Shown piece after piece: positions 1,122 to 20,586 of a stretch of DNA of 20,659 nucleotides. The stretch comes from Nitrososphaeria archaeon (GTDB taxonomy: Archaea; Thermoproteota; Nitrososphaeria; Geothermarchaeales; JDFR-13): contig JALTTZ010000090.1 in NCBI GenBank assembly GCA_027047855.1, forward strand, positions 1 to 20,659, written 5' to 3'. Position 1 is the stretch's first letter, and each line of letters begins with the position of its first letter. Below the pieces are notes generated by a model. The model did not search any database. It was not told the origin of the DNA and was given only the letters and a program-made list of their open reading frames with translations. Position numbers and translations under genes: made by a program.

Positions 1122-1228
1122 CTCTATACACCAGACAATCAACTACACCATATATATAATCTAAGAAAATATGCACAAAAGAATAATTAAAAGTTAATTG
1201 AAGCCAAACTATATAGGTTTACAAAAAC

Positions 1229-1285: not shown

Positions 1286-1287
1286 AT

Positions 1288-1611: not shown

Positions 1612-1664
1612 CCCATCGAATCAATATACCTAATTAATTACCTATAATATTAGTATATAAATTT

Positions 1665-2522: not shown

Positions 2523-2542
2523 TCAAAACCACCACGTAAACG

Positions 2543-3202: not shown

Positions 3203-3206
3203 CTAC

Positions 3207-4165: not shown

Positions 4166-4178
4166 TCCAACCGACCAC

Positions 4179-4334
4179 CTATATCGTAATGAAAAGACCA
4201 AATATAACACCAATAACATAAGATATAGAACCCAATATCAAAATACCTAAGAAAACTAGTTTTGTATATTGCCAATACTCCTTTTTATCCGGTTTTCTCG
4301 CCAGCTTCAACACATTAATATACTTCCTCAACAC
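4179..4334 (-). CDS. secE: Preprotein translocase subunit SecE (Sec61 gamma), 51 aa
   Basis: Not in the ORF track because it is short. My translation is (M)LRKYINVLKLARKPDKKEYWQYTKLVFLGILILGSISYVIGVIFGLFITI*. It has the LARKPxKKEYW motif followed by one TM helix and occupies the canonical position upstream of spt5. Start is GTG 4334 or TTG 4331, and a stop lies 2 codons upstream. Confidence 0.8.
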   Translation of the reverse strand: MLRKYINVLKLARKPDKKEYWQYTKLVFLGILILGSISYVIGVIFGLFITI

Positions 4335-4353
4335 TGGGCTTCACCACAGAACA

Positions 4354-4361
4354 ATATATAA
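4354..4361 (-). promoter_or_regulatory. TATA box (ttatatat on the minus strand) for the secE-spt5-rpl11 unit
   Basis: It lies 20-27 nt upstream of the secE GTG at 4334. This spacing fits a leaderless or near-leaderless archaeal transcript. Confidence 0.5.
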
Positions 4362-4435
4362 CGTACAATTCATTAATATCTTGATAATTAATTCAGTACA
4401 TATACTTAAATCTTAACACATCACCATACTAAAAA

Positions 4436-5254: not shown

Positions 5255-6204
5255 AGACCCATTACCCATCTCAAGATAGCCTTCTGCATATGTAACCTAT
5301 TCTCAGCTTGGTCATACACTATCGATATTCCGGAATCGATAACCTCATCGGTAACTTCCTCACCCCTATGCGCCGGTAAGCAGTGCATGAAATACGTACG
5401 TTTACCAGTAGAAGTTATCAAGTCCATAGTTACACGATACTTAGGTATAAAGACCTTCAACCGTTCCTCCCTCTCCTTTTCCATACCCATAGATACAAAC
5501 GTATCCGTATATATTATATCAGCATCTTTGACAGCATCAGCTGGATCCCTAACAATCTCTACAGTAGAGCCTGAAACCTTACTAAACTCGACTGCCATAT
5601 TAACGATATCTGGATTAGGCTCATAACCCTCCGGCGTCGCTACGCTAATGTTAACACCAGTCTTTGCACAGCCTATGAGGAGTGAATTGGCAACGTTATT
5701 TCCATCACCTACATAAGCCACCTTAACACCCACAAGCCTACCCAACTTTTCATATATAGTTAATAAGTCGGAGAGTATCTGAACAGGATGACACAGATCA
5801 GACAACCCATTTATAACTGGTATATCGGCGTAATAAGCCAATTCTTTAAGATCAAGATGGCTAAACACCCTAGCCATAATAATATCCACATAACGGCTAA
5901 GTACACGTGCAGTATCTTTAATGGACTCGCCCCTACCCAACTGGAGATCATTCCAATTTAGATATAGAGCGTGGCCGCCCATCTGAAGCATAGCTACCTC
6001 GAAAGAGACCCTGGTCCTAGTTGATGGTTTCTGAAATATCATTCCTAGAACCTTTCCACTCATATCATTCGATACATCAATCTTACCTTCCTTAATCTTC
6101 TTAGCAGTTACAATCAGTTCCCATATATCTTCGGGTTCTAGATCTACAAGCCACAACAAATCCCTCTTAAACTTCAAGGAAACCACCCCATTATACAAAA
6201 ACAC
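5251..6204 (-). CDS. argF: Ornithine carbamoyltransferase
   Basis: FQKPSTRTRVSFEVA is the carbamoyl-phosphate site. DTFVSMG and HCLPAHRGEEV are OTC-type motifs, which argues for OTC rather than ATCase. Confidence 0.85.
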   Translation of the reverse strand: MFLYNGVVSLKFKRDLLWLVDLEPEDIWELIVTAKKIKEGKIDVSNDMSGKVLGMIFQKPSTRTRVSFEVAMLQMGGHALYLNWNDLQLGRGESIKDTARVLSRYVDIIMARVFSHLDLKELAYYADIPVINGLSDLCHPVQILSDLLTIYEKLGRLVGVKVAYVGDGNNVANSLLIGCAKTGVNISVATPEGYEPNPDIVNMAVEFSKVSGSTVEIVRDPADAVKDADIIYTDTFVSMGMEKEREERLKVFIPKYRVTMDLITSTGKRTYFMHCLPAHRGEEVTDEVIDSGISIVYDQAENRLHMQKAILRWVMGL

Positions 6205-6228
6205 TCTTTAATAATAGACCATACCATA

Positions 6229-7128
6229 CTAATGGAATATATTTTTTATGACTATATTTTTATCGAAAGGAACAAGGTCATCCAATCCCTGCCCCACACC
6301 CAAATATAATATCGGTTTCCTCAATGCATATGCAACCGTGAGTATAGAGCCTCCTTTAGCATCTCCATCTACCTTGGTGAAGATAACTCCGTCGACCCCA
6401 ACCTTCTCATTAAATTCAAGTGCTTGCCGATAGGCATCTTGACCAGTTAGAGAATCAAGAACTAATATTCTTAAATCGGGTTCGGCCACCTCAACGATCT
6501 TTCTAAGCTCATCCATCAAATTAATGTTGGTATGCTGTCTACCCGCAGTATCAACCAGAACAGCATCTATGCCTCTAGACTCCGCGTGAACTATGGCATC
6601 ATACGCCACCGCCGCGGGGTCGGCTCCATATTGCTGGGTAATAACCCTAACACCGAGTCTATCTCCCCACTCCTTAATCTGTTCTATCGCACCAGCTCTA
6701 AATGTATCCGAACAGGCCAAGACTACACTAAATCCATTCTTTTTTAATCTCCAAGCAATCTTCGCTATCGTCGTTGTCTTACCGACCCCATTAACACCCA
6801 AGAAAACAATCTTGAAAGGCCTTGAACTCCTCTCCTTTATATATTTAATCAGGTCTAACGAGCCTGCGGTATCCAGTATCTCGATAACAGCCTCTCTAAG
6901 TGCATCGAGAACTATCTTACTAGGATTACTGAACCTCTTAAATTCCCTCCCCATTACATTCTTCTCCAAAGATTCCTTGATCCTCTCAACAACTTCCAAG
7001 GAGACATCGTTCTGAAGAAGGAGGAGCTCAATATCACTAAAAACCTCCTCGAACTCCTCCTTCGTTAATTTCTTATACTTAAGTCCACTTATTAACTCAG
7101 AAAGCCCCTTCCTTAAATTATCGAACAT
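6229..7128 (-). CDS. ftsY: Signal recognition particle receptor FtsY
   Basis: SRP-GTPase motifs GVNGVGKTTTIAKIA, DTAGR and TKVDGDAKGG, preceded by an N-domain helical bundle. Confidence 0.95.
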   Translation of the reverse strand: MFDNLRKGLSELISGLKYKKLTKEEFEEVFSDIELLLLQNDVSLEVVERIKESLEKNVMGREFKRFSNPSKIVLDALREAVIEILDTAGSLDLIKYIKERSSRPFKIVFLGVNGVGKTTTIAKIAWRLKKNGFSVVLACSDTFRAGAIEQIKEWGDRLGVRVITQQYGADPAAVAYDAIVHAESRGIDAVLVDTAGRQHTNINLMDELRKIVEVAEPDLRILVLDSLTGQDAYRQALEFNEKVGVDGVIFTKVDGDAKGGSILTVAYALRKPILYLGVGQGLDDLVPFDKNIVIKNIFH

Positions 7129-7136
7129 CCACCTTA

Positions 7137-7571
7137 CTACCTCTCAGATGTTTTCTGCATCTTAAACTGTAGCTCAGTAATCTTGGCGGTTATCTCCTCA
7201 TACCTATTCCTGAGTTGATTAAGTAGATTAGTTCGATCCTGCATAAGCTTTTGGAGATTCTCAATACTCTTATTTACATATTCTAAAGCCGCCTCAAGAT
7301 CCTTCTCCAAGTAGATTCCAGCACCTACACTCACAACAATTTTTGATGGCCTAGTGATAACTACGGGAAGGTACACACCTCCCCCAATAGGCAGCAGAGT
7401 TTCATGTTCCGAGGCCTCAGCATCAGACTTATATTTCCTCAGTATATCGAGAGCGTTCCTATTCTCCATCAGACTCCTTTCAAGAGTAGCTAGTTCATTG
7501 TAAAGCGCCTCAATCAGATCAAGTATCCTCCTCTGCTCATAAACCAATGCAGCCAACTCCTCCCTACTCAA
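7137..7571 (-). CDS. pfdA: Prefoldin alpha subunit
   Basis: 144 aa with a coiled-coil / beta-hairpin / coiled-coil layout (LLPIGGGVYLPVVI...VGAGIYLEK). It lies in the conserved ftsY-pfdA-eif6 neighbourhood. Confidence 0.85.
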   Translation of the reverse strand: MSREELAALVYEQRRILDLIEALYNELATLERSLMENRNALDILRKYKSDAEASEHETLLPIGGGVYLPVVITRPSKIVVSVGAGIYLEKDLEAALEYVNKSIENLQKLMQDRTNLLNQLRNRYEEITAKITELQFKMQKTSER

Positions 7572-7573
7572 CC

Positions 7574-8251
7574 CTAATCCACCTCAAGAGCCTGGGTAAT
7601 GATCATCAACTCCCTACCCGTCGTGGATGTACCCACGAGGGCACCATAATCATTAGCAACTAATCCAGATGATATAAATTCCACACCACCATTAATAGAA
7701 CCATTATAAACAGAAATATTTAGAACATCCCTAATTAGTCGGGACTCATCCTCCTTAATAACGGAGGAGAAAACACCGCCCTTATTATTGGCTACACCCA
7801 GCGACCCAATATATGAAAAACGGCCTATCGTAGTCGAGGCAACCTCCACATCAAGGGTATCAGCAATGATCTTTCGTATGCTCGGAGCTATCAGGGGAGA
7901 GGCAATAGCCCCGGCATCATTAGCCAAAACCAAATTACCAAAAGTATTGAATTTAAAATCAACCACACTATAATTTATATCCAATTCACGCAACGAAGAA
8001 ACGAGATTCTCAATCGCGTAATCCTCCCAAAGCCGTGGAATTACAACTCCATTACTGTTGCACACGATGAAAGGGGAGAGGATCAGGGATGAAACGAGTT
8101 TAACAGGTATACCCTGTGTTTTAAGGACGTTCGCAGCCATCTCAACCTTATTCTTACTTAAATTAGAATGGTAGAGAAAATACTTATTCGTAGCCTTAAT
8201 ATAGAGACCAACATTATCGCCGCCAAAAACCTTAATCTTCATTAATGTCAT
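7574..8251 (-). CDS. eif6: Translation initiation factor 6 (aIF6)
   Basis: MKIKVFGGDNVGLYIKATNKY followed by pentein-like repeats (GNLVLANDAGAIASP, GSLGVANNKGG, GLVANDYGALVG). The start is trimmed to ATG 8251 or 8242, downstream of the rpl31e stop at 8278. Confidence 0.9.
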   Translation of the reverse strand: MTLMKIKVFGGDNVGLYIKATNKYFLYHSNLSKNKVEMAANVLKTQGIPVKLVSSLILSPFIVCNSNGVVIPRLWEDYAIENLVSSLRELDINYSVVDFKFNTFGNLVLANDAGAIASPLIAPSIRKIIADTLDVEVASTTIGRFSYIGSLGVANNKGGVFSSVIKEDESRLIRDVLNISVYNGSINGGVEFISSGLVANDYGALVGTSTTGRELMIITQALEVD

Positions 8252-8277
8252 TCCGTGAAAACACCAAGCCCACTCAC

Positions 8278-8676
8278 TCAATCCTTCGCTGGAAGAACCC
8301 ACACACCAGCATCCTCGGTCTTAACAACCCTAACTTTAATCCTCCTAGGTGGATTCCTAATCCCCCTACTCCAAATAATCTCATTAACCTCCTCTGAAAT
8401 CCTAATATTAGGATCCTTCATATGCCTCTCCATAAACCTCCTCAAAAAGGTAACCGCCTTCTTAGCCCTATGCAAACCACGCTTATACCTGAAAGCCTTG
8501 TATAAAGGAACTACATATATACGTTCCTCCAGAATCTTGGTACTCTCATCAACATATTTAAATAGGATATCCTCTTCTTCCTCCGCCTTCTCCTCAACCT
8601 CAGGCTTCTCCTCTACAGTCTCCTCAGGCTCTTCCTCAACCTTCTCTTCGAGACGCTCCTCAGCCTCACTAAACAT
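8278..8676 (-). CDS. rpl31e: Ribosomal protein L31e with a ~45-aa acidic N-terminal extension
   Basis: The core ERIYVVPLYKAF...HRAKKAVTFLRRFMERHM...IRISEEVNEIIWSRGIRNPPRRIKVRV is L31e-like. The only in-frame ATG/GTG/TTG upstream of this core is ATG 8676. Confidence 0.9.
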   Translation of the reverse strand: MFSEAEERLEEKVEEEPEETVEEKPEVEEKAEEEEDILFKYVDESTKILEERIYVVPLYKAFRYKRGLHRAKKAVTFLRRFMERHMKDPNIRISEEVNEIIWSRGIRNPPRRIKVRVVKTEDAGVWVLPAKD

Positions 8677-8695
8677 AGAAACACCACCTCATAAC

Positions 8696-8872
8696 CTACT
8701 TAAAGAATCGCTTAGTCTTCAACTTCAACTTAGTCCTACGCCAATGCCTCCTACTAGGTGTAGTCCGAACCCTACCATTAGTCTTAGCTATAACCCAGAC
8801 CGGGACACTTTTGTTACTCCTATACGCAGCCGCCAAATGCTTCTTAAACGCATATGTCTTAACCCTCGCCAT
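8696..8872 (-). CDS. rpl39e: Ribosomal protein L39e, 58 aa
   Basis: Not in the ORF track because it is short. My translation is [58 protein letters not shown]. It has the VPVWV and [11 protein letters not shown]39e signatures and the canonical position next to rpl31e. Confidence 0.9.
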
Positions 8873-8874
8873 AC

Positions 8875-9162
8875 CTAAAACCCCCTAATCCTAAAATCTT
8901 TCCTAGTCTGAACCCTAGCCAAAATACTCTTCAACTCACCATCACTAATCCTATGATCCAACCTACCCTGAACACCCAACTGAATAATAATATCCTCAAC
9001 CCTCCTAGCCAACTCAGGCTTAACGAGAGAGACCCTTCTAAGCCTCTCCCTAGCCTCAGGAGTAAGAAACTGCCTAAGAAGAGCCTGCCTCTTAACCTGC
9101 TCCTCCTTATCCTCATCCTTAGAGGGTTGCTGAGGCCCCCAATAACTCATAACCAAACTCAC
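8875..9162 (-). CDS. PDCD5/TFAR19-like DNA-binding protein
   Basis: [35 protein letters not shown] fits the PDCD5-like family pattern. It lies between rps19e and rpl39e, as in many archaea. Confidence 0.8.
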
Positions 9163-9614
9163 CCCACATACTCCTCATACCAAGGCTTAATATCGAGCTC
9201 CCTCTTAATACTAGCTGCCAACTTATCCAATAAACTACGGCCCTTAGACGTCAAAACCCTACCCTTAGGAGTCTTCTCAACCAAACCAGCCTCCTCCAAC
9301 TGCTGCAGAATCTTCCTAATAATAGCGCCACCACCCTTATAAAAATGCTCCGGCCGGACGCCCCTATCCTTACGCCCACCATACATAAGCCTCAAATCAT
9401 CAACACCCAAAGGCCCCTTCAAATACAACTTCCTCAGAATAGAGGCAGCCCTCTTATACCACCAATCCGGATCATCCGGAGGCCTCTCCCTAGAGACACC
9501 AGTCTTAACCCATAGACTCCACTCCGGAGGCCTAACACTCTCAACCTCAGACTTAATATACACACTCAACCGCTCAATAAAAACATCCGCAGGCACATCC
9601 TTAACACTAACCAC
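9159..9614 (-). CDS. rps19e: Ribosomal protein S19e
   Basis: VSVKDVPADVFIERLSVYIK...PEWSLWVKTGVSRERPP...WWYKRAASILRKLY...GGGAIIRKILQQLE matches S19e. The start is trimmed to GTG 9614, with a TATA box 21-28 nt upstream; the tracked ORF starts at TTG 9635. Confidence 0.9.
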   Translation of the reverse strand: MVSVKDVPADVFIERLSVYIKSEVESVRPPEWSLWVKTGVSRERPPDDPDWWYKRAASILRKLYLKGPLGVDDLRLMYGGRKDRGVRPEHFYKGGGAIIRKILQQLEEAGLVEKTPKGRVLTSKGRSLLDKLAASIKRELDIKPWYEEYVG

Positions 9615-9634
9615 TTCCACACACCCACACAACA

Positions 9635-9642
9635 ATTATATT
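9635..9642 (-). promoter_or_regulatory. TATA box (aatataat on the minus strand) for rps19e
   Basis: It lies 21-28 nt upstream of GTG 9614, which suggests a leaderless mRNA. Confidence 0.45.
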
Positions 9643-9704
9643 CAAATAACCCACAAACCCTATATTTATATCTTAACTAAAACAACAGAAATATATAAAC
9701 AAAA

Positions 9705-9766
9705 GGGTCAGAGAGACCAAAAACCAATCACCAAACAATCATAACTGCTCCAGATCATCATCCCCC
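9705..9766 (-). ncRNA. Candidate C/D box sRNA (62 nt)
   Basis: The minus strand reads GGGGG-AUGAUGA-UCUGGAGCAGUU-AUGA-UUGUUUG-GUGAUUG-GUUUUUGGUCUCU-CUGA-CCC. The C box (RUGAUGA) and D box (CUGA) are perfect, and GGG/CCC closes the terminal stem. The 43-nt interior divides into a 12-nt guide, a degenerate D', a 7-nt loop, a degenerate C' and a 13-nt guide. A TATA box lies 25-34 nt upstream and a T-rich tract (UUUUGUUUAUAUAUUU) follows. Confidence 0.6.
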
Positions 9767-9790
9767 AAAACAAAAAACAAACCAAAAAAC

Positions 9791-9800
9791 TATAAATAAA
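9791..9800. promoter_or_regulatory. Shared, apparently bidirectional TATA box (tataaataaa / tttatttata)
   Basis: Its right edge is 28 nt from the tRNA-Met 5' end (9828). Its left edge is 25 nt from the candidate sRNA 5' end (9766). No other TATA-like element lies between the two divergent RNA genes. Confidence 0.5.
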
Positions 9801-9850
9801 ACCAAAACAAAAAAATACAATATAGACGCCGGGGTAGCTCAGCCTGGCAG

Positions 9851-9872
9851 ACCCCCACACAGGGGGACCCAA
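9851..9872 (+). other. tRNA-Met intron 1 (about 22 nt) in the D-arm, a non-canonical position
   Basis: acccccacacagggggacccaa interrupts the D-loop/D-stem junction. Removing it restores the GCTC/GAGC D-stem. The exact cut is ambiguous by 1-2 nt. Internal hairpin: CCCCC-ACACA-GGGGG. Confidence 0.75.
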
Positions 9873-9887
9873 AGCGCCGGACTCATA

Positions 9888-9923
9888 ATCGAAAAAGGGG
9901 AGCTAAACCCCCTTAAAGGAGAC
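9888..9923 (+). other. tRNA-Met intron 2 (about 36 nt) at the canonical 37/38 position
   Basis: Removing atcgaaaaaggggagctaaacccccttaaaggagac restores the CTCATAA loop and the CCGGA/TCCGG stem. Confidence 0.8.
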
Positions 9924-9961
9924 ATCCGGAAGTCGCGGGTTCAAATCCCGCCCCCGGCACA

Positions 9962-9966
9962 TTTTT
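9962..9966 (+). terminator. Oligo-T (T5) immediately after tRNA-Met
   Basis: The sequence cacATTTTTatg follows the discriminator base directly. Archaeal RNA polymerase terminates at oligo-T tracts. Confidence 0.5.
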
Positions 9967-10023
9967 ATGTATCAATAAATTAACGAGGTTTTTAATCTAC
10001 GTAATTAATAAATAATTTGAAAG

Positions 10024-10554
10024 ATGGTTGCAATGACCTCGTTATATAGAAGGCCTGACATATATGATGCCATTTTCTCTTTGGATCCTATAATCGAGAT
10101 TAATTTTTACAAGGGAATAATTGAGAATTTCGGCATAAGGTTTGATAAACCTGGGGTCGGTGTAATAGATTTTGAGAATGGCACTGGCAAACTCCTCGGT
10201 AAATTACCTGCTGATAAGGCGTTTCTTCTGGGTGTGGATGTGAGTATGGATATAGAAAACATGGTGGGAAGTTTGATGCTATTATAGAAAGCATGAAGTC
10301 TGTACGAAGTCGTGTGGAAAATAATTGACATCAATCAACATCTCAATAAGATGGTAGAGGTAATCACTGTTAAGACAGGTTCAAAATTAGTTCTCCAACA
10401 TAGAGCAATGCTTACAATAATTAAATATGAAGAGTTCCGTAACATAGTTGATGATATAGGTTTTAGATTGGAGTATTGGCTAAAGCCCCTCGAAATAACT
10501 TCATTAAGAAAACCACAACAGGGAAGAATTATAGTAGTCCTTAGAAAGCCTTAA
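10024..10554 (+). pseudogene. Decayed class I SAM-dependent methyltransferase (in-frame stops, frameshift, degenerate motif I)
   Basis: The N-terminal ORF has YDAIFS...VIDFENGTGKL..LGVDVS, which is motif I with GCG replaced by ENG. It ends at TAG 10285-10287 and a TGA follows 2 codons later. The expected GKFDAII (post-motif II) is readable only in another frame at about 10263-10285. The C-terminal piece 10312-10554 returns to the first frame. The total length is far shorter than a normal methyltransferase. Confidence 0.6.
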
Positions 10555-10625
10555 CCGCCATATTTGATTAACAGCCGGAATCAGTATATTATGTTAAATA
10601 TTTATGTCTATGTTTAATTCTTTAT

Positions 10626-10829
10626 ATGCCGCTCATGATGCTGACTATTAAAAAGGGAGTTTATAAGAAGCTTTTGAAGTTGAATAGAAGATGTGAGCGT
10701 TTTAGCGGTTTGCTCCTTAAGTTGGTTAGGAGAGGTCGTAATATTGATATTTTATATGAATTGGCTGGCTCGGTAGATTGGATAGCTAAAGAGGAGTTGC
10801 TCAAAGATATTTATTCACGTAGGTTCTAG
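10626..10829 (+). CDS. Orphan small antitoxin-like protein (archaeal VapB / COG1753-like pattern)
   Basis: TIKKGVYKKLLKLNRRCERFSGLLLKLV resembles the (S/T)IxxxVYxxLxxLK...SFSDVIxxLl pattern of archaeal putative antitoxins. No PIN gene follows; 290 bp of non-coding DNA follows instead. Confidence 0.4.
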   Translation: MPLMMLTIKKGVYKKLLKLNRRCERFSGLLLKLVRRGRNIDILYELAGSVDWIAKEELLKDIYSRRF

Positions 10830-11119
10830 GTAGGAAAGTGTCCTTGAATAAAAGTCCTATTATAGATAATAAATGGAAGTCCAGATAGTGGGGCTGAATT
10901 AATAGTGAACATAGTTGATTCAGGAAAGAAGGTGGGTGCAATTCAATAACCCTTTTTATAAAGATTTATTCAAAATAAGTTGGAATGAGTGGCATCAAGA
11001 GATTATTGGAAATAGGCATCGTAGAGTATAACAAAGATATACAGCTATATTAGTGCTTCATGATGGTTATGCTACGTGTACGCTACAGATTTTTATGAAT
11101 TAGGATATAATTTTATTCA

Positions 11120-12487
11120 GTGATACATATGGAGACCGAGTATGTAAAAAGGGATTATAAGAAGAGGAGTTATTGGTTGGAGCAGTTGGGCGATATTACA
11201 CCTAATCCATCCTTGGAGGGAGAAGGTGAAACAGATATAGCAATTATAGGCGGTGGATACACTGGTTTATCAACAGCTTACCACCTAAAGACCTACGATA
11301 AAGGGGTTGAGGTTGCGCTTCTTGAGGCGGAAATATGCGGATACGGTGCCAGTGGAAGAAATGGAGGATTCAATATGACCCTGTTTGGCTTAACCCCGAC
11401 ACAGACTATGAATACTTTCGGGGTTGAGAAGGGCAGGGAGGCCAGGAAGTTTATGGAGGAGTCCGTAGACTACCTAGCCAATTTCATTAAGGAACATGAG
11501 GTGGACTGTGAATATGAAGGAAGCGGATACCTCTTAGTCGCAACTAATAAGGCCCAGGTAAAGAGACTTAAGGAGGAATTTAAGGCTGCTGAAGAGATGG
11601 ATTTCGAGGGTGTCGAGGAGTGGGATAGAGAGAAGCTTAGGGAGGAGTTTAATACCGATAAGTATTTATTGGGGTGGTTTGAGGAGAGGTGTGGAATACT
11701 TAATCCAGCTAAGTGGGCTAGGGAATTGAAGAGATTGGCTGAGGAAGTGGGGGCTAAAATCTATGAGTACTCGCCAGTATTAAAGGTTGAAAGGGATAAT
11801 GGGGATGGATATAAATATGTTTTGAGGACGCCTAAGGGCATATTGAGAGCCAAGAGAGTTGTGTTTGCCACAAATGCCTACTCAATATTGTTTCCAGAGC
11901 TCTATAAACTCCAGACACCGGCCTTCACAAGGATAGTCTTAACCGAACCTCTGACTGAGGAGCAGATGGAGAGCATTGGATGGAGAAGCAGAGCTGGTAT
12001 AGAGGATGCTAGGAACTTTATTCACTATTACAGACTGACCAAGGACAATAGGATACTATTGGGAGGCGGGGACGTCGGAGTAACCTATGGAAAAAACATG
12101 GAGAAAGACCTAGATAGAAAGAACTTTGAGGAACTAAAGAGATACTTACTGTGGGTCTTCCCCCAGCTAAAAGGCATAAAATTCACCCACGAATGGGGCG
12201 GCCCAGTCTCAATAACTCTCGACATGGCCCCAGCCATCGGATTCCTAGATAGAGACAAAACAATGATATATGCACTAGGCTACATTGGACACGGAGTCTC
12301 AGCAACATTCAACGTAGGAAGAACCCTAGCCGAACTCCTCCTAAACATAGATACACACCGAACCAAACTCTTCATCATAGGCCGAAAAATAAGTACATGG
12401 CCACCAGAACCACTCAGATACATCCTAAGCCAAATAATACGAGGCTACATGAGACTAGAAGACAAACTACGATACGGAGAAAAATAG
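11120..12487 (+). CDS. FAD-dependent oxidoreductase (DAO/glycine-oxidase superfamily)
   Basis: DIAIIGGGYTGLSTAYHL is the dinucleotide-binding GxGxxG motif, and the 455-aa length is typical of the family. The real start may be ATG 11129 (METEYV), which has a TATA-like tttttatgaatt about 30-40 nt upstream. Confidence 0.8.
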   Translation: MIHMETEYVKRDYKKRSYWLEQLGDITPNPSLEGEGETDIAIIGGGYTGLSTAYHLKTYDKGVEVALLEAEICGYGASGRNGGFNMTLFGLTPTQTMNTFGVEKGREARKFMEESVDYLANFIKEHEVDCEYEGSGYLLVATNKAQVKRLKEEFKAAEEMDFEGVEEWDREKLREEFNTDKYLLGWFEERCGILNPAKWARELKRLAEEVGAKIYEYSPVLKVERDNGDGYKYVLRTPKGILRAKRVVFATNAYSILFPELYKLQTPAFTRIVLTEPLTEEQMESIGWRSRAGIEDARNFIHYYRLTKDNRILLGGGDVGVTYGKNMEKDLDRKNFEELKRYLLWVFPQLKGIKFTHEWGGPVSITLDMAPAIGFLDRDKTMIYALGYIGHGVSATFNVGRTLAELLLNIDTHRTKLFIIGRKISTWPPEPLRYILSQIIRGYMRLEDKLRYGEK

Positions 12488-12779: not shown

Positions 12780-13577
12780 CTAAGCTTTTAATATGGTTAT
12801 TATATTATATACTATTCCATACTGCTTCTTCAATATACTGAAACCAATATTATTGAGAAAACTCTGGAGATCTCGTTTTCTAGAGATATCTATACGGTAG
12901 TTGTTACGATTTGTTTTGATGATGCCCCCTTTCTTAGTGATACATATTGTTCCAGCTCTGACGTTAATATATGGTCCAGTTGCAATTATATTGAAATATT
13001 TCTTCAGCAGATATTGTACATAGTATAGTAATGTTAAATTGTTGTTGTAAAGATGTATTCGTTTGCATCTATAGTTACATCCATCGCTATCATATATTCC
13101 CTTTAAGAAGTTCGCTACAGTCTCTTTATCATATTCAATATATTTCTTTAATGTTTCTAATGTTTGTTGTTTATACCATGTGTAAAACGCCTTAGAACGA
13201 TAGTATACTCTCCATCTATTGGATGCTTTACTCCACTCTGGTTCCTTATATTTCTTGCCAAGTAATATGGACATTGCTTTAGAAAATTCTTTAGCGAACT
13301 CATAGTCCCTAACCTTTAATTCAACTTCATATATGTTTCTTCTAGGCTTAACAAGGCACCCGTCTCCAAGCAGTACCCCTATCACATAGGCCAATCTAAT
13401 AGATGGTTCTGGATGCCACCTAGCGAGCCAAGGCTTCTTGCCTTCATATATCCAATCCTCGACCGTACGCTTCTTAACGCCAAGTCTCTTAGATATCTCA
13501 CTAAGCTTAAACCCATCCTTATACATATCTATAGCCATCTTATACTGATCATAGGAATAACTCCTGTATCCAGCCAT
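12780..13577 (-). CDS. Free-standing double-motif LAGLIDADG homing-endonuclease-like protein with an N-terminal HTH
   Basis: Two LAGLIDADG motifs are present: LAYVIGVLLGDGCL and VANFLKGIYDSDGC. The N-terminal HTH is LSEISKRLGVKKRTVEDWI. A GGAGGT Shine-Dalgarno-like sequence (13585-13590) lies 7 nt before ATG 13577; the tracked ORF starts at GTG 13583. The coding strand is A-rich with A-ending codons, unlike its neighbours. Confidence 0.8.
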   Translation of the reverse strand: MAGYRSYSYDQYKMAIDMYKDGFKLSEISKRLGVKKRTVEDWIYEGKKPWLARWHPEPSIRLAYVIGVLLGDGCLVKPRRNIYEVELKVRDYEFAKEFSKAMSILLGKKYKEPEWSKASNRWRVYYRSKAFYTWYKQQTLETLKKYIEYDKETVANFLKGIYDSDGCNYRCKRIHLYNNNLTLLYYVQYLLKKYFNIIATGPYINVRAGTICITKKGGIIKTNRNNYRIDISRKRDLQSFLNNIGFSILKKQYGIVYNIITILKA

Positions 13578-13876
13578 AAACACTACCTCCTATAACTTGT
13601 AAGAATAATACTTACGGGTGGCTCTATGTCCATATTATATGTGCCCACGATAACATAATCTGCAAAACATCGATGATGCAGGCCGATTCTCTCAACGAGA
13701 CTAGCTCCACTATATCACATCGTTTTAACATATAGCAAGAGTATATCTTGATAAAAGCCGGGTTAGACATTCTCCACATAATTAATTGCTATTTTATATT
13801 TAAACCAAGACTAGTATACAGAACATTATTTAAATTCGGGCAATTATAATGATCCATGTTCTATCTCAAAACTTCT

Positions 13877-14720: not shown

Positions 14721-14809
14721 GGGCCCGTGGTCTAGCGGTAGGACAGGTCAGCCCCTAAGGCCGCCCTCGCAAGGCGGAGATCCGGGTTCAATTCCCGGCG
14801 GGTCCACCA
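14721..14809 (+). tRNA. tRNA-Ala (CGC) with a 15-nt non-canonical intron; CCA encoded
   Basis: The spliced reading is GGGCCCG-TG-GTCT-AGCGGTA-GGAC-A-CCGCC-CTCGCAA-GGCGG-AGAT-CCGGG-TTCAATT-CCCGG-CGGGTCC-A-CCA. The G3:U70 alanine identity pair is present. The anticodon CGC is at 14768-14770. Confidence 0.88.
14746..14760 (+). other. tRNA-Ala intron (15 nt) at about position 26/27, between the D-arm and the anticodon stem
   Basis: ggtcagcccctaagg must be removed to place position 26 next to the CCGCC stem. The cut is ambiguous by 1 nt. Confidence 0.7.
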
Positions 14810-15801: not shown

Positions 15802-16275
15802 CTATATTGACTTTACAGCCCTCCATACAGCATCACCTATGTGATGCAAGTTCTTAACCACCTTTCCTTTAACCATTTGTGGAAGCATACTCGAATTCAC
15901 AAGAGCTACCCCAACCGCGATTACATTTCCATATTCCTCAACCTTCACCACCACAACATCATTAACACTAAAACTTGTGTAGGAAACTATGCCCGGCCTC
16001 ATCACATCGGCACCATTAGCAATGTATTTAACCGCCCCCTTGTCAACTACAACTAACCCATAACCCTCGAAACGGTCTATAGAGCTGATATATGGGATAT
16101 AAATACCCCCTACATTTACAATAGTAGGTTCATCATCAACAAGTATCAATTCACGATCCTTTACCACAATAGACTTTATATTCTTCGTCTTAGGCAGCTT
16201 ATGGCTCAACCCCCGCCTCACGATAGCCTTCAGTATCTCTTTATAACGTTTCTTACTAATCTGCCTAACCTCCAT
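15802..16275 (-). CDS. PUA-domain RNA-binding protein (MCT-1/Tma20-like)
   Basis: The C-terminal PUA pattern is VVVDKGAVKYIANGADVMRPGI...GNVIAVGVAL. The start is trimmed to ATG 16275 (MEVRQISKK); the tracked ORF extends to 16308. Confidence 0.75.
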   Translation of the reverse strand: MEVRQISKKRYKEILKAIVRRGLSHKLPKTKNIKSIVVKDRELILVDDEPTIVNVGGIYIPYISSIDRFEGYGLVVVDKGAVKYIANGADVMRPGIVSYTSFSVNDVVVVKVEEYGNVIAVGVALVNSSMLPQMVKGKVVKNLHHIGDAVWRAVKSI

Positions 16276-16316
16276 CCTACATACCCACCAAACCACACAA
16301 ATCCTCAATAGACCAT

Positions 16317-17382: not shown

Positions 17383-17616
17383 ATGAAGAGGGTATTTAGC
17401 TTCAAGATTGATGAGGAATTGTGGAGAGAGATGAAGAGACATCCATATATAAACTGGAGTGAGGTTATTCGAGAAGCCATAGCAAAGAGGTTATCCCAAG
17501 AAAAAGGGAGCAGAGTGGGATACGCCGTTAAACTACACATGGAAGCACTATCCAAGATCCAGCCAAGCGACACAGACATAACCGAAATCATAAGAAAATA
17601 TAGGGATCGAAGATGA
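17383..17616 (+). CDS. vapB: RHH/CopG-type antitoxin (VapB-like)
   Basis: MKRVFSFKIDEELWREMKRHPYINWSEVIREAIAKRL reads as beta-strand, helix, helix. Its stop overlaps the PIN gene start (ATGA at 17613-17616). The start is trimmed from the tracked 17338. Confidence 0.75.
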   Translation: MKRVFSFKIDEELWREMKRHPYINWSEVIREAIAKRLSQEKGSRVGYAVKLHMEALSKIQPSDTDITEIIRKYRDRR

Positions 17617-18023
17617 AGACACTAATATTAGACGCATCGGTATTAGCAAAGACCTTCGTAAAAGAAGACAATAGCGACAAAGCAATGGAATTAATAGACG
17701 GATACCTAAAAGGAGAATACAGCATAATAATATCAGAACTAACCATATGGGAAGTACTAAACGCACTTAAGTACCATAAAGCATTCCCAAACGAGATGCT
17801 AGCTAAAGTAGGTGAAGCACTATACTACTACGGCTTCGAGATAACCAGCCTCAACCTAGAACTCATACTCAAAACCATCGAGATAGCAACAGAAAATAAT
17901 ATAACAATATACGACGCAACATACCTAGCACTCACAGAACTACATAAAGGCGAATTCATAACAGCCGACAAGAAACTATATGAAAAAATACACAGCAAAT
18001 ACCCAACCAGACTACTCAAATAA
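17613..18023 (+). CDS. vapC: PIN-domain ribonuclease toxin (VapC)
   Basis: MKTLILDASVL carries the first acidic residue. ISELTIWEV, IYDATYLALT and FITADKKL follow in the spacing typical of the PIN acidic residues. Confidence 0.85.
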   Translation: MKTLILDASVLAKTFVKEDNSDKAMELIDGYLKGEYSIIISELTIWEVLNALKYHKAFPNEMLAKVGEALYYYGFEITSLNLELILKTIEIATENNITIYDATYLALTELHKGEFITADKKLYEKIHSKYPTRLLK

Positions 18024-18101: not shown

Positions 18102-19649
18102 ATGCTGCCGCACTTCACACCTATAGTAAGTCCCGAGGCCTTGGAACATATTGGCGGATTACTAGATGAATTCCAATACGCCATACTCCCCTACTATTTG
18201 GTTTGGCACGATGACCCCACCTCACTCAAACACGAGTTAAGCAAATATGATGTTGAGTGGATATTGTCAAGCATAATGCCTGACGAGGCTCTGCTGAGAA
18301 GTGATATACACATCCGGTTCCTCGAATTCGCGTCTAAAATGGGGGTTAGACACCTAGTTGTCTGGGATATGCCCACATACCTAGAGAATTATGAAGATAG
18401 CCTGAGGAATACCGAGATATCCATAAATAGGCTCCTATGGTTCAGAGAGAACTACCAACATAACATTATTCCATTGGCGAAGGGAGCTTATCCAGAACAG
18501 CTAAGGATATCCTTGGAGAACATATTAGGCTTAGGTTATGAAGTGGTCGCCTTCCACGTAAGTGAGTATCTAACAAGTAGATTGCCCCCCTATCCGTACA
18601 TAGATGACAAGACATTGACGGCCAAAGACTATATGATGCAGATGATCAAGGTCATAACTGAATACCCCTTCAATGAGATACTCTTGATTGGGGTGGGTAA
18701 TCCAAAGACGGTTAGGGAGCTGGATTGGGACGACAGGTTTAGATATGCCGGATACTCATGGTATATAGATGGAAAGAACTTCAGGCTATATACAGGCGAG
18801 AAGGTCATCGACGTCGGTTACAGATATTTTGAGTGTAGCTGCCCAGCCTGTAAATACACCCCACCATTAATTAGGAGAAGAACCTCCCTGCCCGGGCATA
18901 ATCTACTCATCATCCGGGGGGTTGCCGAGGATGAGGAGGTAATAGAGCCAAGGATATATGAACTCATAGCGGATCACCATGAGGACATCCTAATCATATC
19001 CGGCCTCTACGTCGGAAACAGATACAGTAGGTGGCGTGAAGCCATTAAAGTAATTGAGGAGATGGAGCCGAGCCACCTAATATTCCTGGGCAACACATTC
19101 CATGTAGGCGAAGACACCATATACAATATGTGGAGAGAATTCCTAGAATGGCTAGTAAACTATTGCAACGGAACAGGGACACTTATCCATGTGGTTAAGG
19201 GGGTTTGGGAGACCTGGCCTGTAGACATACTAAAAAACAGGTATACAGTATACCTCGGTGTAGAGGACCCCCTACAAACCAGGCTAGAACCTGAGGAGAA
19301 GTATCCCTTAGGCCTCCTCCATAGATTCTACACGCCCTCATGGACAAAGATGCACATAAGAAAATATACATTGGATGGATCGATAGACATATACGTATAC
19401 ACCCTAAACAAGTACCACGACACTCTAACCCCAGAAGAGGCTGAGGAGTGGCTCACAAACGAAAAACGATTCAAACAAATAGATATGCTATACACAGACC
19501 TAACAACCTACCCCATACTAAACCAAGAAGAGGGGATCGGAAGCCCAGGAATATGGCTAAGGAAGATAGAGGCAAGAACCCCATCCAAACCCGGGGCAAT
19601 ACACATAAACAACAAGGGAGAAGCAAAGCTAATAACACCAGAGGAATAA
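18102..19649 (+). CDS. Uncharacterised 515-aa protein: divergent TGT/DpdA-like transglycosylase barrel (aa 1-~285) fused to a degenerate calcineurin-type phosphoesterase-like domain (aa ~290-400) plus a C-terminal region
   Basis: Ordered motif matches to the tRNA-guanine transglycosylase family: FTPIVSP (aa 5-11), VVWDMPTY (86-93), LLIGVGNPKTV (194-204), ELDWDD (206-211), and CSCPAC-x15-HNL (245-268) as the Zn site. These are followed by ILIISGLYVGN (296-306), HLIFLGNTFH (325-334) and LIHVVKGVWE (361-370). Those three are spaced like metallophosphoesterase motifs I-III, but every metal ligand is substituted. This is a by-eye call and needs profile or structure confirmation. Confidence 0.45.
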   Translation: MLPHFTPIVSPEALEHIGGLLDEFQYAILPYYLVWHDDPTSLKHELSKYDVEWILSSIMPDEALLRSDIHIRFLEFASKMGVRHLVVWDMPTYLENYEDSLRNTEISINRLLWFRENYQHNIIPLAKGAYPEQLRISLENILGLGYEVVAFHVSEYLTSRLPPYPYIDDKTLTAKDYMMQMIKVITEYPFNEILLIGVGNPKTVRELDWDDRFRYAGYSWYIDGKNFRLYTGEKVIDVGYRYFECSCPACKYTPPLIRRRTSLPGHNLLIIRGVAEDEEVIEPRIYELIADHHEDILIISGLYVGNRYSRWREAIKVIEEMEPSHLIFLGNTFHVGEDTIYNMWREFLEWLVNYCNGTGTLIHVVKGVWETWPVDILKNRYTVYLGVEDPLQTRLEPEEKYPLGLLHRFYTPSWTKMHIRKYTLDGSIDIYVYTLNKYHDTLTPEEAEEWLTNEKRFKQIDMLYTDLTTYPILNQEEGIGSPGIWLRKIEARTPSKPGAIHINNKGEAKLITPEE

Positions 19650-19692: not shown

Positions 19693-20586
19693 GTGGGGCA
19701 ATACTCCAGCGGCGAAACCCCAGAAACAAGAGAGACACAGCAACTAACCCTAGACATAAGCATCGACAGAGAAAAATACCTATACATACACCTAAAGAAA
19801 AGCATCCTAGAAAAACTAGGAATAAAAGAACCCGGCATCTACAAACTAACCCTAAAACTAAACGGAGAGACCTACACCACCTACATACACATCAAAAAAC
19901 TAAAGAAACAGAAACTAAACCTACCCCCAAAATACCAGGGCAAAACCAAAGCAACAATAACAAACATAGAAAAATACAACCTAGAAAAAATACTCCAAAC
20001 AATAAACAAACACTACAGAGAAGGCCATATAGACTACACAATAATCCAAGAAAATGGTAATAACTACCTCAAAATAGGTAACGTAACCAAAGAAATAAAG
20101 AAAATGAACATCAGAATCTACCAAGGCACAATAAACCTAGACATAGAGATAGACGCGGCACCAGAAAAAACCCTACGCCTACAAATAAGAATACAAGATG
20201 ATAAACCAGAACTATACTACAACATAAGAGGAAAATACACGTACTACAAAATAACAAAAATAAAAACAACACCAGATGTAACAGTACTAATATACAAAGA
20301 AACAGAAAAAGGAAAGAAAGTAGATAGACACGTATACATTCTTCCCACCGAAGTATCTAGAAATATGAAAAAGATCCTAGAAAGTCTGAAAATAAGAGAT
20401 TTTAGGTTTTTAGATAGAGAAAGAATGTTTGGACGTATATTTGAAGTATATAAAATAATTCTAGAACCTAAAACAAAACTACAAATAGATGCATTTTTGG
20501 ATTATACATACAGAATTTACTTTAGTACACCCAACTGGAGATATGGCCAACAAAGAAAGGGAAAAGATCGGACTTATCATTGCTGA
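19693..20586 (+). CDS. Lysine-rich 297-aa orphan protein, possible AbrB/SpoVT-like N-terminal DNA-binding domain
   Basis: The frame stays open across a T-poor region in which the other two frames are full of cTAAa/aTAAa stops. YIHLKKSILEKLGIKEPGIYKLTLKLNG resembles the AbrB-like (v)tIPKeireklGikeGdkv pattern. GTG 19693 is the only usable start upstream of aa 147, and it lies 43 nt after the preceding stop, so the two genes are probably co-transcribed. Confidence 0.5.
   Translation: MGQYSSGETPETRETQQLTLDISIDREKYLYIHLKKSILEKLGIKEPGIYKLTLKLNGETYTTYIHIKKLKKQKLNLPPKYQGKTKATITNIEKYNLEKILQTINKHYREGHIDYTIIQENGNNYLKIGNVTKEIKKMNIRIYQGTINLDIEIDAAPEKTLRLQIRIQDDKPELYYNIRGKYTYYKITKIKTTPDVTVLIYKETEKGKKVDRHVYILPTEVSRNMKKILESLKIRDFRFLDRERMFGRIFEVYKIILEPKTKLQIDAFLDYTYRIYFSTPNWRYGQQRKGKDRTYHC

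What the first reader, a model, noticed from the sequence alone, without database searches (positions are those of the whole stretch)
18102..19649. 515-aa protein: TGT-like barrel with intact Zn motif but rewritten catalytic strand, fused to a metallophosphoesterase-like domain in which every metal ligand is replaced
N-terminal half, in family order:
- FTPIVSP, compared with TPxFMPV.
- VVWDMPTY, where TGTs have the catalytic (D)SGG(F/Y)Q. The Asp and the aromatic residue are kept and the glycines are lost.
- LLIGVGNPKTV, compared with LFG(V/I)GxPxxI.
- ELDWDD, compared with G(V/I)DxFD.
- CSCPAC-x15-HNL, compared with the CxCxxC...HNL zinc site.

The barrel starts at residue 5, and the Gly-motif-to-Cys distance is about 48 aa, which is much shorter than I recall for tRNA TGTs. 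This compactness is as I recall for DNA-acting DpdA-type enzymes.

C-terminal half: ILIISGLYVGN, HLIFLGNTFH and LIHVVKGVWE have the strand-loop spacing of calcineurin/LpxH-type motifs I-III (DxH, GD, GNH[DE]). The residues at the ligand positions are G/Y, N and K-G-V-W, so this would be a pseudo-phosphoesterase that probably serves as a binding or scaffold module. I know of no described TGT-phosphoesterase fusion.
Basis: partly seen in the sequence, partly recalled or inferred. Interest (0 to 1): 0.8.

Follow-up and report, generated by a model that had tools for sequence, protein, structure and literature searches.

The report
TGT-like reader paired with MGQ-tailed nuclease
This archaeal gene encodes a tRNA-transglycosylase-like barrel that has lost its catalytic nucleophile, fused to a dead phosphoesterase domain, and it always sits just upstream of a nuclease-like gene whose product starts Met-Gly-Gln-aromatic, which suggests it controls that nuclease by gripping its N-terminal tail, as a recently described anti-phage system does.

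Summary
The ORF (18102-19649, +, 515 aa) is real and belongs to a conserved, unannotated archaeal family.

- **N-terminal half:** a TGT fold with an intact CxCxxC...H zinc site. The position of the Asp nucleophile is variable (R214 here), so it is not a DpdA- or TGT-type transglycosylase. A pocket of 12 residues is essentially invariant in 46 unique homologs.
- **C-terminal half:** a true Metallophos homolog (hhalign 99.3 %). In the window's clade every metal ligand is replaced. The wider family keeps motifs I, II, IV and V.
partly wrong. VVWDMPTY matches the second Asp motif (LDIPT), not DSGGFQ.
- **New result:** in about 47 of 55 non-redundant loci the next gene starts [start]-Gly-Gln-[Tyr/Phe/His/Leu], with synonymous codon variation. 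These partners are otherwise diverse and nuclease-like (PD-(D/E)xK motif, LAGLIDADG-like). A third gene follows.
- **Relatives:** TGT-only relatives precede TIR or nucleotidyltransferase-like proteins that start Met-Gly.

This matches the Cap10-CdnD arrangement of type IV CBASS, but without a QueC homolog. Best reading: a Cap10-like reader of the partner's N-terminal tail in a conflict cassette. Binding itself is inferred, not shown.

The parts
18102..19649 (+). Gene 1: 515-aa two-domain protein (TGT-like barrel plus degenerate Metallophos domain)
   Evidence: ORF list and translation. 100 % identical to P0001. AF2 model pLDDT 87.9.
18102..18941 (+). TGT-fold (beta/alpha)8 barrel with zinc subdomain, residues ~1-280
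   Evidence: Foldseek top hit 1iq8 ArcTGT, E 1.2e-10. hhalign against true ArcTGT 97.5 %. PADLOC model PDLC00912 'TGT', E 3.9e-8.
18267..18284 (+). S56-S57-I-M59-P-D61 loop, equivalent of the DSGG(F/Y)Q strand/loop. S56 and D61 are invariant in the whole family
   Evidence: hhalign pairs D61 with the Asp of TDSGG; manual motif alignment would pair S57 with it. Unresolved.
18363..18380 (+). W88-D89-M-P-T-Y, equivalent of the FLD130IPT / FD156EC base-reading Asp motif. W88 and D89 are invariant
   Evidence: HMMER alignment to 1iq8, hhalign, 46-sequence table.
18480..18485 (+). K127-G128, at the position of Q169 (ArcTGT) / Q203 (bacterial TGT); invariant Lys
   Evidence: Cap10 also reads the base with a Lys (K154); whether K154 is the equivalent position was not tested.
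18555..18569 (+). H152-V-S-E155-Y156, replacing the GG-V-V substrate-pocket strand of ArcTGT. H152 is invariant; E155 and Y156 are nearly so
18741..18743 (+). R214, the position aligned with the covalent nucleophile Asp (D249 ArcTGT); variable in the family
18834..18899 (+). Zinc site C245-x-C247-x2-C250 ... H266-N267-L
   Evidence: Aligned with C279/C281/C284/H307 of 1iq8. Present in 38 of 46 unique homologs.
18948..19646 (+). Metallophos-derived domain, residues ~283-515, with all metal ligands replaced (G301, Y303, N331, V367, Y431/Y433, L467, T469)
   Evidence: hhalign against stand-alone Metallophos_2 proteins 99.3 %, E 4e-20. Alignments A2 and g1. Pfam Metallophos E 0.026, sub-threshold.
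19693..20586 (+). Gene 2 (partner): GTG start, product begins M-G-Q-Y-S. A-type partner, cut in this assembly by a 1-nt insertion near 20533. In frame +1 the sequence continues to the window end and beyond into a PD-(D/E)xK-like domain
   Evidence: The 99.9 %-identical contig L084 has an uninterrupted ORF of at least 380 aa.

Best explanation
Gene 1 is the first gene of a conserved three-gene archaeal cassette.

Its N-terminal half is a TGT-superfamily barrel. It keeps the zinc subdomain and a strictly conserved ligand pocket (S56, D61, W88, D89, K127, H152, E155, Y156, W220). It has lost the Asp nucleophile, so it binds rather than exchanges.

Its C-terminal half descends from an LpxH/YfcE-like metallophosphoesterase. 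That domain still has motifs I, II, IV and V in most of the family. In the window's clade it has lost every metal ligand and serves as a scaffold.

The most likely ligand of the pocket is the flexible N-terminal tail of the protein encoded immediately downstream. After removal of Met1, that tail exposes Gly2-Gln3-(Tyr/Phe/His)4, possibly carrying a 7-deazaguanine-type adduct. This would work the way Cap10 holds the N-terminus of the CD-NTase in type IV CBASS. The complex would keep the nuclease-like partner in check (PD-(D/E)xK-like here) until a trigger releases it, as in a defence or conflict module.

Shown: folds, homologies, residue conservation, loss of ligands and nucleophile, gene order, and the MGQ motif.

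Inferred: physical binding of the tail in the pocket, any adduct, regulation of the nuclease, and the defence role.
For: - TGT fold and zinc site.
- The nucleophile position is variable while 12 pocket residues are invariant across 46 unique proteins of 22-50 % identity.
- Metallophos homology with ligands lost only in the window clade.
- The downstream gene starts [ATG/GTG/TTG]-GGN-CAR-[Y/F/H/L]. The automated count was 40 of 55 non-redundant loci. Most starts lie at offsets of -19 to +16 nt. Gly and Gln codons and the start codon all vary.
- Only M1, G2 and Q3 are conserved across partner classes.
- Partners are nuclease-like. A-type partners have invariant D342/E355/K357 in an alpha-beta-beta-beta-alpha-beta context. 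Weak Hjc, LAGLIDADG and HTH Pfam hits.
- The partner model has a disordered tail, residues 1-34.
- The family profile also retrieves TGT-only proteins. Their next genes are ThsB-TIR proteins starting MGGSS / (GTG)GGGIR, one of them in a type I R-M island with a caspase-like protease, and an NTase-like protein starting MGVKY.
- The published precedent is Cap10. It binds Gly2 of CdnD bearing 7-amido-7-deazaguanine, and N-terminal Met-Gly motifs are essential (bioRxiv 10.1101/2025.04.06.647259). QatB has an MGTS motif (PMC13279940). TIR operons with cap9/10/11 are reported (10.64898/2025.12.03.692087).
- The PADLOC 'TGT' model PDLC00912 hits at E 3.9e-8, whereas the DpdA and Pfam TGT models do not.
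Against: - Tail-in-pocket binding is therefore an analogy.
- No QueC/Cap9 homolog lies near any locus, so a deazaguanine adduct has no obvious writer.
- Cap10 keeps its nucleophile Asp and lacks the zinc site. This family is the reverse.
- No sequence hit to Cap10 in the PDB copy. That PDLC00912 is the CBASS-IV model rests on my memory.
- Neighbourhoods are not obviously defence islands. In the window the cassette sits near housekeeping genes, and none was found on viral contigs.
- The partner fold is unassigned by Foldseek.
- In this assembly the partner gene is frameshifted.
Confidence: 0.45

Rival explanations
1. Nucleic-acid base sensor. The TGT-like barrel flips out and reads a guanine or 7-deazaguanine in DNA or RNA without excising it, as a non-catalytic TGT paralog. 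It then recruits or licenses the downstream nuclease, acting as a type IV restriction-like module against modified viral genomes.
For: - Retained base-reading Asp (D89), the Lys at the Gln position, and the zinc subdomain that in TGTs lies next to the nucleic-acid site.
- Nuclease-like partners.
- Non-catalytic TGT paralogs exist (QTRT2; PMC5699537).
Against: - It does not explain the near-universal Met-Gly-Gln-aromatic N-terminus of otherwise unrelated partners.
- It does not explain the Met-Gly tails of TIR/NTase partners of TGT-only relatives.
- No PUA or other RNA/DNA-binding extension.
Confidence: 0.2
2. Writer rather than reader. The TGT-like domain itself attaches a nucleobase (for example the nitrile of preQ0, by ArcS-like amine addition) to Gly2 of the partner, without a QueC homolog. 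The Metallophos domain, where active, edits or removes the adduct.
For: - No Cap9/QueC in any locus, yet the same N-terminal-glycine arrangement.
- ArcS is a TGT paralog that makes archaeosine from preQ0-tRNA by an amidotransferase step rather than base exchange (PMC5699537). My recollection, unverified here, is that it adds a lysine amine to the preQ0 nitrile.
- The invariant pocket includes possible acid/base residues D61, E155 and H152.
Against: - Purely chemical analogy.
- The proposed ArcS catalytic motif PCX3KPYX2SX2H lies in its C1 domain. This protein has no ArcTGT/ArcS C1, C2 or PUA domains.
- No mass-spectrometric or structural evidence.
Confidence: 0.15
3. A genuine 7-deazaguanine transglycosylase acting on DNA (DpdA-like) or tRNA, with a scaffold domain.
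For: TGT fold, zinc site, retained D89, compact barrel.
Against: - The nucleophile Asp is absent and that position is not conserved.
- The substrate pocket is rewritten.
- No hit to the DpdA or TGT models.
- No dpd, queC/D/E or folE neighbours.
Confidence: 0.05
4. Accessory gene of a selfish nuclease element (a homing-endonuclease-like or toxin-antitoxin-like cassette) with no role in immunity. Gene 1 simply neutralises the nuclease.
For: - LAGLIDADG-like and PD-(D/E)xK-like partners.
- Three copies in one genome, two of them tail to tail.
- Patchy distribution.
- An RHH-PIN pair sits next to it in the window.
Against: - Not mutually exclusive with the best explanation; the mechanism would be the same.
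- No repeats, integrases or target-site evidence were examined.
- Absent from IMG/VR contigs.
Confidence: 0.1

Closest known systems
Cap10 of type IV CBASS (TGT-family protein that binds the deazaguanylated N-terminal Gly of the CD-NTase CdnD; bioRxiv 10.1101/2025.04.06.647259, cited as Science 389:1347, 2025)
   Same: - TGT-fold protein encoded next to a partner whose N-terminus is Met-Gly-... on a disordered tail.
- A base-reading Asp and a Lys in the pocket.
- tRNA-binding domains absent.
- Hit to the PADLOC 'TGT' model.
   Different: - Cap10 keeps the nucleophile Asp (D248) and lacks the zinc site; here the nucleophile is gone and the zinc site is kept.
- No Cap9 (QueC-like), Cap11 or CD-NTase.
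- The partner motif is MGQ[YFH], not M(G/S)G(G/S)GG.
- The partner is nuclease-like.
- Fused to a Metallophos domain.
- Found in Thermoproteota archaea.
Archaeosine tRNA-guanine transglycosylase (ArcTGT, P. horikoshii 1iq8)
   Same: Best structural and sequence match. Barrel, LFGxGxP strand and CxCxxC...HNL zinc site align.
   Different: - No nucleophile Asp.
- GG-V-V pocket replaced by HxSEY; Gln replaced by Lys.
- No C1/C2/PUA domains.
- Below all TGT family thresholds.
DpdA (DNA 7-deazaguanine transglycosylase)
   Same: A compact TGT-superfamily protein without a PUA domain, in a non-tRNA context.
   Different: DpdA conserves D95, D249 and the preQ0 pocket and sits in dpd clusters (PMC5699537). 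None of this holds here, and the PADLOC DpdA model does not hit.
QTRT2 / ArcS: TGT paralogs that do not act as transglycosylases
   Same: Precedents for TGT-family proteins kept for binding or for different chemistry. QTRT2 lacks the active-site Asp.
   Different: Both act on tRNA and keep tRNA-binding architecture. No phosphoesterase fusion and no N-terminal-glycine partner.
Calcineurin-like metallophosphoesterases of the YfcE/LpxH/PdeM type (Pfam PF12850/PF00149)
   Same: The C-terminal domain is homologous over about 200 residues with the same motif order.
   Different: All ligands are replaced in the window clade. Even the 'active' relatives replace the Asn/His of motif III (GNHD becomes GC[SC]D, GDA, GSH) and carry an insertion of about 60 residues between motifs III and IV.
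QatB-QatC (qatABCD) and Thoeris operons with cap9/cap10/cap11
   Same: The same logic: an N-terminal Met-Gly tail (MGTS in QatB) is essential and is inserted into a queuosine-pathway-derived enzyme.
   Different: Those systems are built around a QueC-family enzyme. Here there is none, and the tail partner is a nuclease-like protein.

Membership tests
TGT / ArcTGT (PF01702, TIGR00432) | (beta/alpha)8 TGT barrel | tested here: met
   Foldseek 1iq8 E 1.2e-10, 287 PDB hits at E<=1e-3. hhalign against P0099 97.5 %.
TGT / ArcTGT (PF01702, TIGR00432) | Zinc site CxCxxC...H | tested here: met
   C245/C247/C250/H266 align with C279/C281/C284/H307.
TGT / ArcTGT (PF01702, TIGR00432) | Covalent nucleophile Asp (D249 Ph / D280 Zm) | tested here: not met
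   Aligned residue is R214. The column is R/C/I/A/F/V/S/K/Y in 46 homologs.
TGT / ArcTGT (PF01702, TIGR00432) | General acid/base Asp of the DSGG(F/Y)Q motif (D95 Ph / D102 Zm) | tested here: inconclusive
TGT / ArcTGT (PF01702, TIGR00432) | Score above the curated family threshold | tested here: not met
   No Pfam TGT or NCBIfam TgtA hit at E<=10.
TGT / ArcTGT (PF01702, TIGR00432) | Base-exchange activity on tRNA | not testable with these tools
   Needs a biochemical assay.
DpdA | Conserved D95/D249 and preQ0 pocket (V197/V198 region) | tested here: not met
   R214 at the nucleophile position; H152-V-S-E-Y156 in place of GG-V-V. Definition from PMC5699537.
DpdA | dpd / preQ0-synthesis gene neighbourhood | tested here: not met
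   No such genes in the precomputed Pfam annotations of the look-up loci. The only conserved neighbours across about 70 loci are the MGQ-partner and a third gene.
DpdA | Match to a DpdA profile | tested here: not met
   The PADLOC DpdA model PDLC02807 hits the true ArcTGT P0099 but not this protein.
Cap10 (type IV CBASS accessory TGT) | TGT-fold protein paired with a partner bearing an N-terminal Met-Gly tail | tested here: met
   MGQ[YFHL] start of the next gene in about 47 of 55 loci. Disordered tail, residues 1-34.
Cap10 (type IV CBASS accessory TGT) | Catalytic Asp/His pair (D248/H226) retained | tested here: not met
   The nucleophile position is variable. TGT-only relatives do keep an [AC]DG[FI]xTQxH motif.
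Cap10 (type IV CBASS accessory TGT) | Operon with Cap9 (QueC-like) and a CD-NTase | tested here: not met
   Neither is seen in any locus.
Cap10 (type IV CBASS accessory TGT) | Partner N-terminus physically bound in the TGT pocket, with an NDG adduct | not testable with these tools
Needs AF3, a structure or mass spectrometry.
Calcineurin-like metallophosphoesterase (PF00149/PF12850) | Homology / fold | tested here: met
   hhalign 99.3 %, E 4e-20, 199 columns. The family profile retrieves stand-alone Metallophos_2 proteins.
Calcineurin-like metallophosphoesterase (PF00149/PF12850) | Metal-binding motifs DxH, GD, GNH(D/E), H, GHxH | tested here: not met
   G301xY303, G330-N331, G366-V-W-E, Y431/Y433, L467/T469.
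Calcineurin-like metallophosphoesterase (PF00149/PF12850) | Score above the Pfam gathering threshold | tested here: not met
   15.4 bits against 21.5.

The most novel reading that the evidence does not exclude
The cassette is a QueC-independent archaeal counterpart of N-terminal deazaguanylation systems. Gly2 of a nuclease effector would carry a nucleobase or other adduct that the nucleophile-less TGT barrel writes (ArcS-like chemistry) or reads. The fused metallophosphoesterase would be the eraser or trigger, active in most of the family and fossilised in this clade. If so, the newly discovered nucleobase-protein conjugation would extend to archaea, to nuclease and TIR effectors, and to a new enzyme architecture.
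Probability: 0.2. Interest if true: 0.9.

Novelty: new variant of a known kind. Interest (0 to 1): 0.72.

Why it matters
Use of queuosine-pathway folds to modify or grip the N-terminal glycine of immune proteins was only discovered in 2025 (type IV CBASS, then QatABCD and some Thoeris operons). It is known only together with a QueC-family writer.

This family would widen that picture in several ways:
- The TGT-type reader can stand without QueC.
- It can lose its nucleophile.
- It can be fused to a phosphoesterase.
- It can be coupled to nucleases.
- It occurs in Thermoproteota archaea.

The family also gives a sharply testable prediction: residues 2-4 of the partner sit in a pocket lined by D61, D89, K127, H152 and Y156.

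Finally, it is a clean natural series for studying how a two-enzyme fusion decays into a double pseudo-enzyme while its pocket stays under strong selection.

Tried and rejected
- **Family libraries on the protein:** Pfam and NCBIfam gave nothing above threshold.
- **PDB by sequence:** single sequence and profile gave only ArcTGT. The TGT-only relative P0113 gave nothing and no Cap10.
- **Broad alignment A3 for collection scans:** too divergent. The narrower A4 worked.
- **Viral contigs:** no relative.
- **Partner and third genes:** Pfam, PADLOC and PDB profile searches gave only weak hits such as Hjc, LAGLIDADG_3, HTH and DUF1823. Foldseek of the partner model found nothing at E<0.01.
- **Window partner against other partners:** blastp found nothing. 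An HMM of A-type partners linked them (E 1.7e-7).
- **QueC-like function in the third gene:** by eye, the one gene B sequence printed (L007) has no SGGxDS PP-loop motif. This was not searched systematically.
- **Nearby PUA-domain protein (15802-16308) as a split ArcTGT module:** rejected. Among these loci it recurs only in contigs 95-100 % identical to the window over gene 1 (L006, L083, L084).
- **Literature:** searches for a TGT-phosphoesterase fusion found none.
Full report
**1. The observation**

It is a real, conserved gene:
- The 5.8-billion-protein collection holds 23 relatives at E<=1e-59. Most are 514-546 aa and all are unannotated.
- A profile of 19 of them finds 128 cluster representatives at E<=1e-3.
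- DNA scans find 13 loci in GTDB species genomes and 62 in JGI metagenomes, and none in IMG/VR.
- The named hosts are Candidatus Geothermarchaeota, Nitrososphaeria, Thermoprotei and Thermofilaceae.

The window itself is archaeal chromosome. It carries the L10/L1/L11/Spt5 genes, FtsY, prefoldin, eIF6 and S19e. Over gene 1 it is 95 % identical at protein level to a Geothermarchaeota MAG.

**2. The N-terminal half**

An AlphaFold2 model built on the family alignment is confident (mean pLDDT 87.9, pTM 0.83). Foldseek against the PDB puts P. horikoshii ArcTGT first (1iq8, E 1.2e-10, 306 columns), followed by dozens of bacterial TGT entries. hhalign of the family profile against a genuine ArcTGT found in the profile search (P0099, Pfam TGT E 1.5e-74) gives 97.5 % probability, E 8e-12.

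How the motifs align:
- The zinc ligands C245/C247/C250/H266 align with C279/C281/C284/H307.
- VVWD89MPTY aligns with FLD130IPT, the second base-reading Asp motif. It does not align with DSGG(F/Y)Q.
- The DSGG strand corresponds to ILSSIMPD61.
- Gln169 is replaced by K127.
- The GG-V-V pocket strand is replaced by H152-V-S-E-Y156.
- The covalent nucleophile D249 aligns with R214.

In an alignment of 46 unique family members (22-50 % identity), that nucleophile column is R/C/I/A/F/V/S/K/Y. By contrast, S56, [S/A/T]57, M59, D61, W88, D89, K127, H152, E155, Y156, G197 and W220 are essentially invariant. So the pocket is under strong selection, but the chemistry of base exchange through an Asp-ribosyl intermediate is not available.

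Pfam TGT, NCBIfam TgtA and the PADLOC DpdA model do not hit. A PADLOC model named 'TGT' (PDLC00912) does, at E 3.9e-8.

**3. The C-terminal half**

Pfam gives only a sub-threshold Metallophos hit. However, the family profile retrieves stand-alone proteins that pass Metallophos_2 at 1e-9 to 1e-16. hhalign of residues 283-515 against them gives 99.3 %, E 4e-20 over 199 columns.

- ILIISG301LY303VGN is motif I (DxH).
- FLG330N331TFH is motif II (GD).
- VKG366VWE is motif III (GNHD).
- In addition, Y431/Y433 stand for HGH, and L467/T469 for GHxH.

Every ligand is therefore replaced.

Longer relatives (530-628 aa) with the same two-domain architecture keep DxH, GD, HGH and GHxH. Motif III is unusual even in them: GC[SC]D, GDA or GSH. 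Loss of the ligands is confined to the window's clade.

**4.

In the window, a GTG at 19693, 44 nt after the stop, opens an ORF whose product begins (M)GQYSSGE.

The same holds across the loci I fetched:
- The gene immediately downstream starts [ATG/GTG/TTG]-Gly-Gln-[Tyr/Phe/His/Leu].
- An automated count gave 40 of 55 non-redundant loci.
- At least seven more were missed only because of coordinate conventions or a longer spacer. These include the window, L001, L019, L020, L021, L022 and L038.
- Two further loci have Met-Gly-Glu.
- Typical spacing is -19 to +16 nt.
- All four Gly codons, both Gln codons and three start codons are used, so the constraint is on the protein.

Beyond residues 1-3, the partners share nothing family-wide. 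They fall into several classes:
- An A-type of about 400-425 aa with invariant D342, E355 and K357. The AF2 model places these in an alpha-beta-beta-beta-alpha-beta arrangement, the classic PD-(D/E)xK layout.
- A class of about 450-490 aa with weak HTH and LAGLIDADG hits.
- Classes of about 650-700 aa and 211 aa.

The model of an A-type partner has a disordered tail of 34 residues.

A class-specific third gene follows. It has no informative family match.

The degenerate-Metallophos clade coincides with the A-type partners.

**5. The window's own partner**

The 297-aa ORF is a truncated A-type partner (HMM E 1.7e-7).

The window is identical to an ENA contig of 36.5 kb (L083). A 99.9 %-identical contig from another run (L084) lacks one A at about window 20533. 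There the ORF runs on for at least 380 aa through GIDIIAS...IYFIEVKAT. In L083 the remainder is called as a 125-aa ORF, followed by the third gene (332 aa). Both lie beyond the window.

The frameshift is either an assembly error or a very recent lesion.

**6. Relatives that point to the mechanism**

The family profile also hits TGT-only proteins that share the LSS[IV]M[PE]D, KG and FH motifs. They keep an [AC]DG[FI]xTQxH motif that may be the nucleophile.

Their next genes are:
- a ThsB-type TIR protein starting MGGSSRGE (L086);
- a TIR protein starting (GTG)GGGIRGE, followed by a second TIR and a caspase-like protease, next to a type I R-M system (L087);
- a protein starting MGVKYSS with a GSSDVD nucleotidyltransferase-like motif (L088).

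This is the arrangement described for type IV CBASS:
- Cap10, a remodelled TGT-family protein, holds Gly2 of the CD-NTase.
- That glycine carries 7-amido-7-deazaguanine installed by the QueC-like Cap9.
- The M(G/S)G(G/S)GG motif is essential.

QatB (MGTS) with QatC, and some Thoeris operons with cap9/10/11, follow the same logic.

**7. Interpretation**

I conclude that gene 1 is a Cap10-like reader of its partner's N-terminal tail, not a transglycosylase, and that the cassette is a nuclease-based conflict module.

The steps that are shown are the folds, the homologies, the residue conservation and losses, the gene order and the MGQ motif. The steps that are inferred are binding of the tail in the pocket, any adduct, regulation of the nuclease and the biological role.

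Points against this reading:
- No QueC homolog lies near any locus.
- Cap10 keeps its nucleophile and lacks the zinc site, the reverse of this family.
- I could not model the complex.
- That the PADLOC model is the CBASS-IV one rests on my memory.
- The neighbourhoods are not clearly defence islands.

The rivals are a nucleic-acid base sensor, an ArcS-like writer, a true DpdA-like enzyme, and a selfish nuclease element. They are weighed in the report sections.

**8. Novelty**

I found no paper describing a TGT-phosphoesterase fusion or this cassette. The kind of system, a queuosine-pathway fold acting on an N-terminal-glycine tail, has been known since 2025. This architecture, its host range, the MGQ-aromatic motif, the nuclease partners and the absence of QueC are new. 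I therefore rate it a new variant of a known kind, with high interest.

Noticed in passing
window 20527-20540 (indel at ~20533); L083 10628; L084: The partner gene carries a 1-nt insertion (CCCAACTGG against CCCACTGG) relative to a 99.9 %-identical contig from another sequencing run. This splits a ~422-aa ORF into 297 aa plus 125 aa. It is either an assembly error or a very recent frameshift.
   Followed up: yes
window 17383-17616 (+) and 17613-18023 (+): An RHH_12 / PIN toxin-antitoxin-like pair with overlapping genes lies directly upstream of gene 1. PIN genes also sit just upstream of the cassette in L001 and L005, though on the other strand.
   Followed up: partly
P0033, P0036, P0038, P0053 (N-termini); TGT-only P0076, P0089, P0139, P0145: Most longer relatives carry a 70-130-residue N-terminal extension rich in Cys (CxxxCxxC(P)x5CGG(C)...). 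It resembles radical-SAM/SPASM-type Fe-S cluster motifs. The window's clade lacks it.
   Followed up: no
L007 7995-15612 and L001/L012 (MTMA02000006.1, Ca. Scotarchaeum otlingeri JdFR-13): One genome holds three copies of the cassette. Two are adjacent and tail to tail, with different gene orders (1-A-B on the + strand; A-B-1 on the - strand).
   Followed up: partly
L087 6001-8867 (GCA_009771185.1) and L086: A TGT-only relative is followed by a ThsB-TIR protein with a Met-Gly-Gly N-terminus, a second TIR and a caspase-like peptidase C14, beside a type I R-M system. No QueC-like gene lies within 6 kb. This may be a Cap9-less TGT-TIR system.
   Followed up: partly
window 18981-18986 (E294-D295): An invariant Glu-Asp pair just before the degenerate motif I strand is specific to the clade that lost the DxH/GD ligands. 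It could be a replacement site or an interface.
   Followed up: no
window 14721-14809 (+): ARAGORN calls an 89-nt 'tRNA-Pyl (CTA)'. The length and anticodon suggest an intron-containing or mis-typed archaeal tRNA.
   Followed up: no
window 12780-13583 (-): A 266-aa HTH_23 plus LAGLIDADG_3/WhiA-like protein lies in the variable region between housekeeping genes. It is unrelated by blastp to the LAGLIDADG-like partners of the wider family.
   Followed up: partly
window 15802-16308 (-): A stand-alone PUA-domain protein lies 1.8 kb from a TGT-like gene. It is tempting to read it as a split ArcTGT module. However, among the loci fetched it is seen beside gene 1 only in contigs 95-100 % identical to the window over gene 1 (L006, L083, L084).
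   Followed up: partly
window 1-10000 against 10000-12000: GC skew is strongly negative (-0.25 to -0.43) over the minus-strand ribosomal/translation gene block and flips to about +0.3 at 10-12 kb. It tracks coding strand.
   Followed up: no
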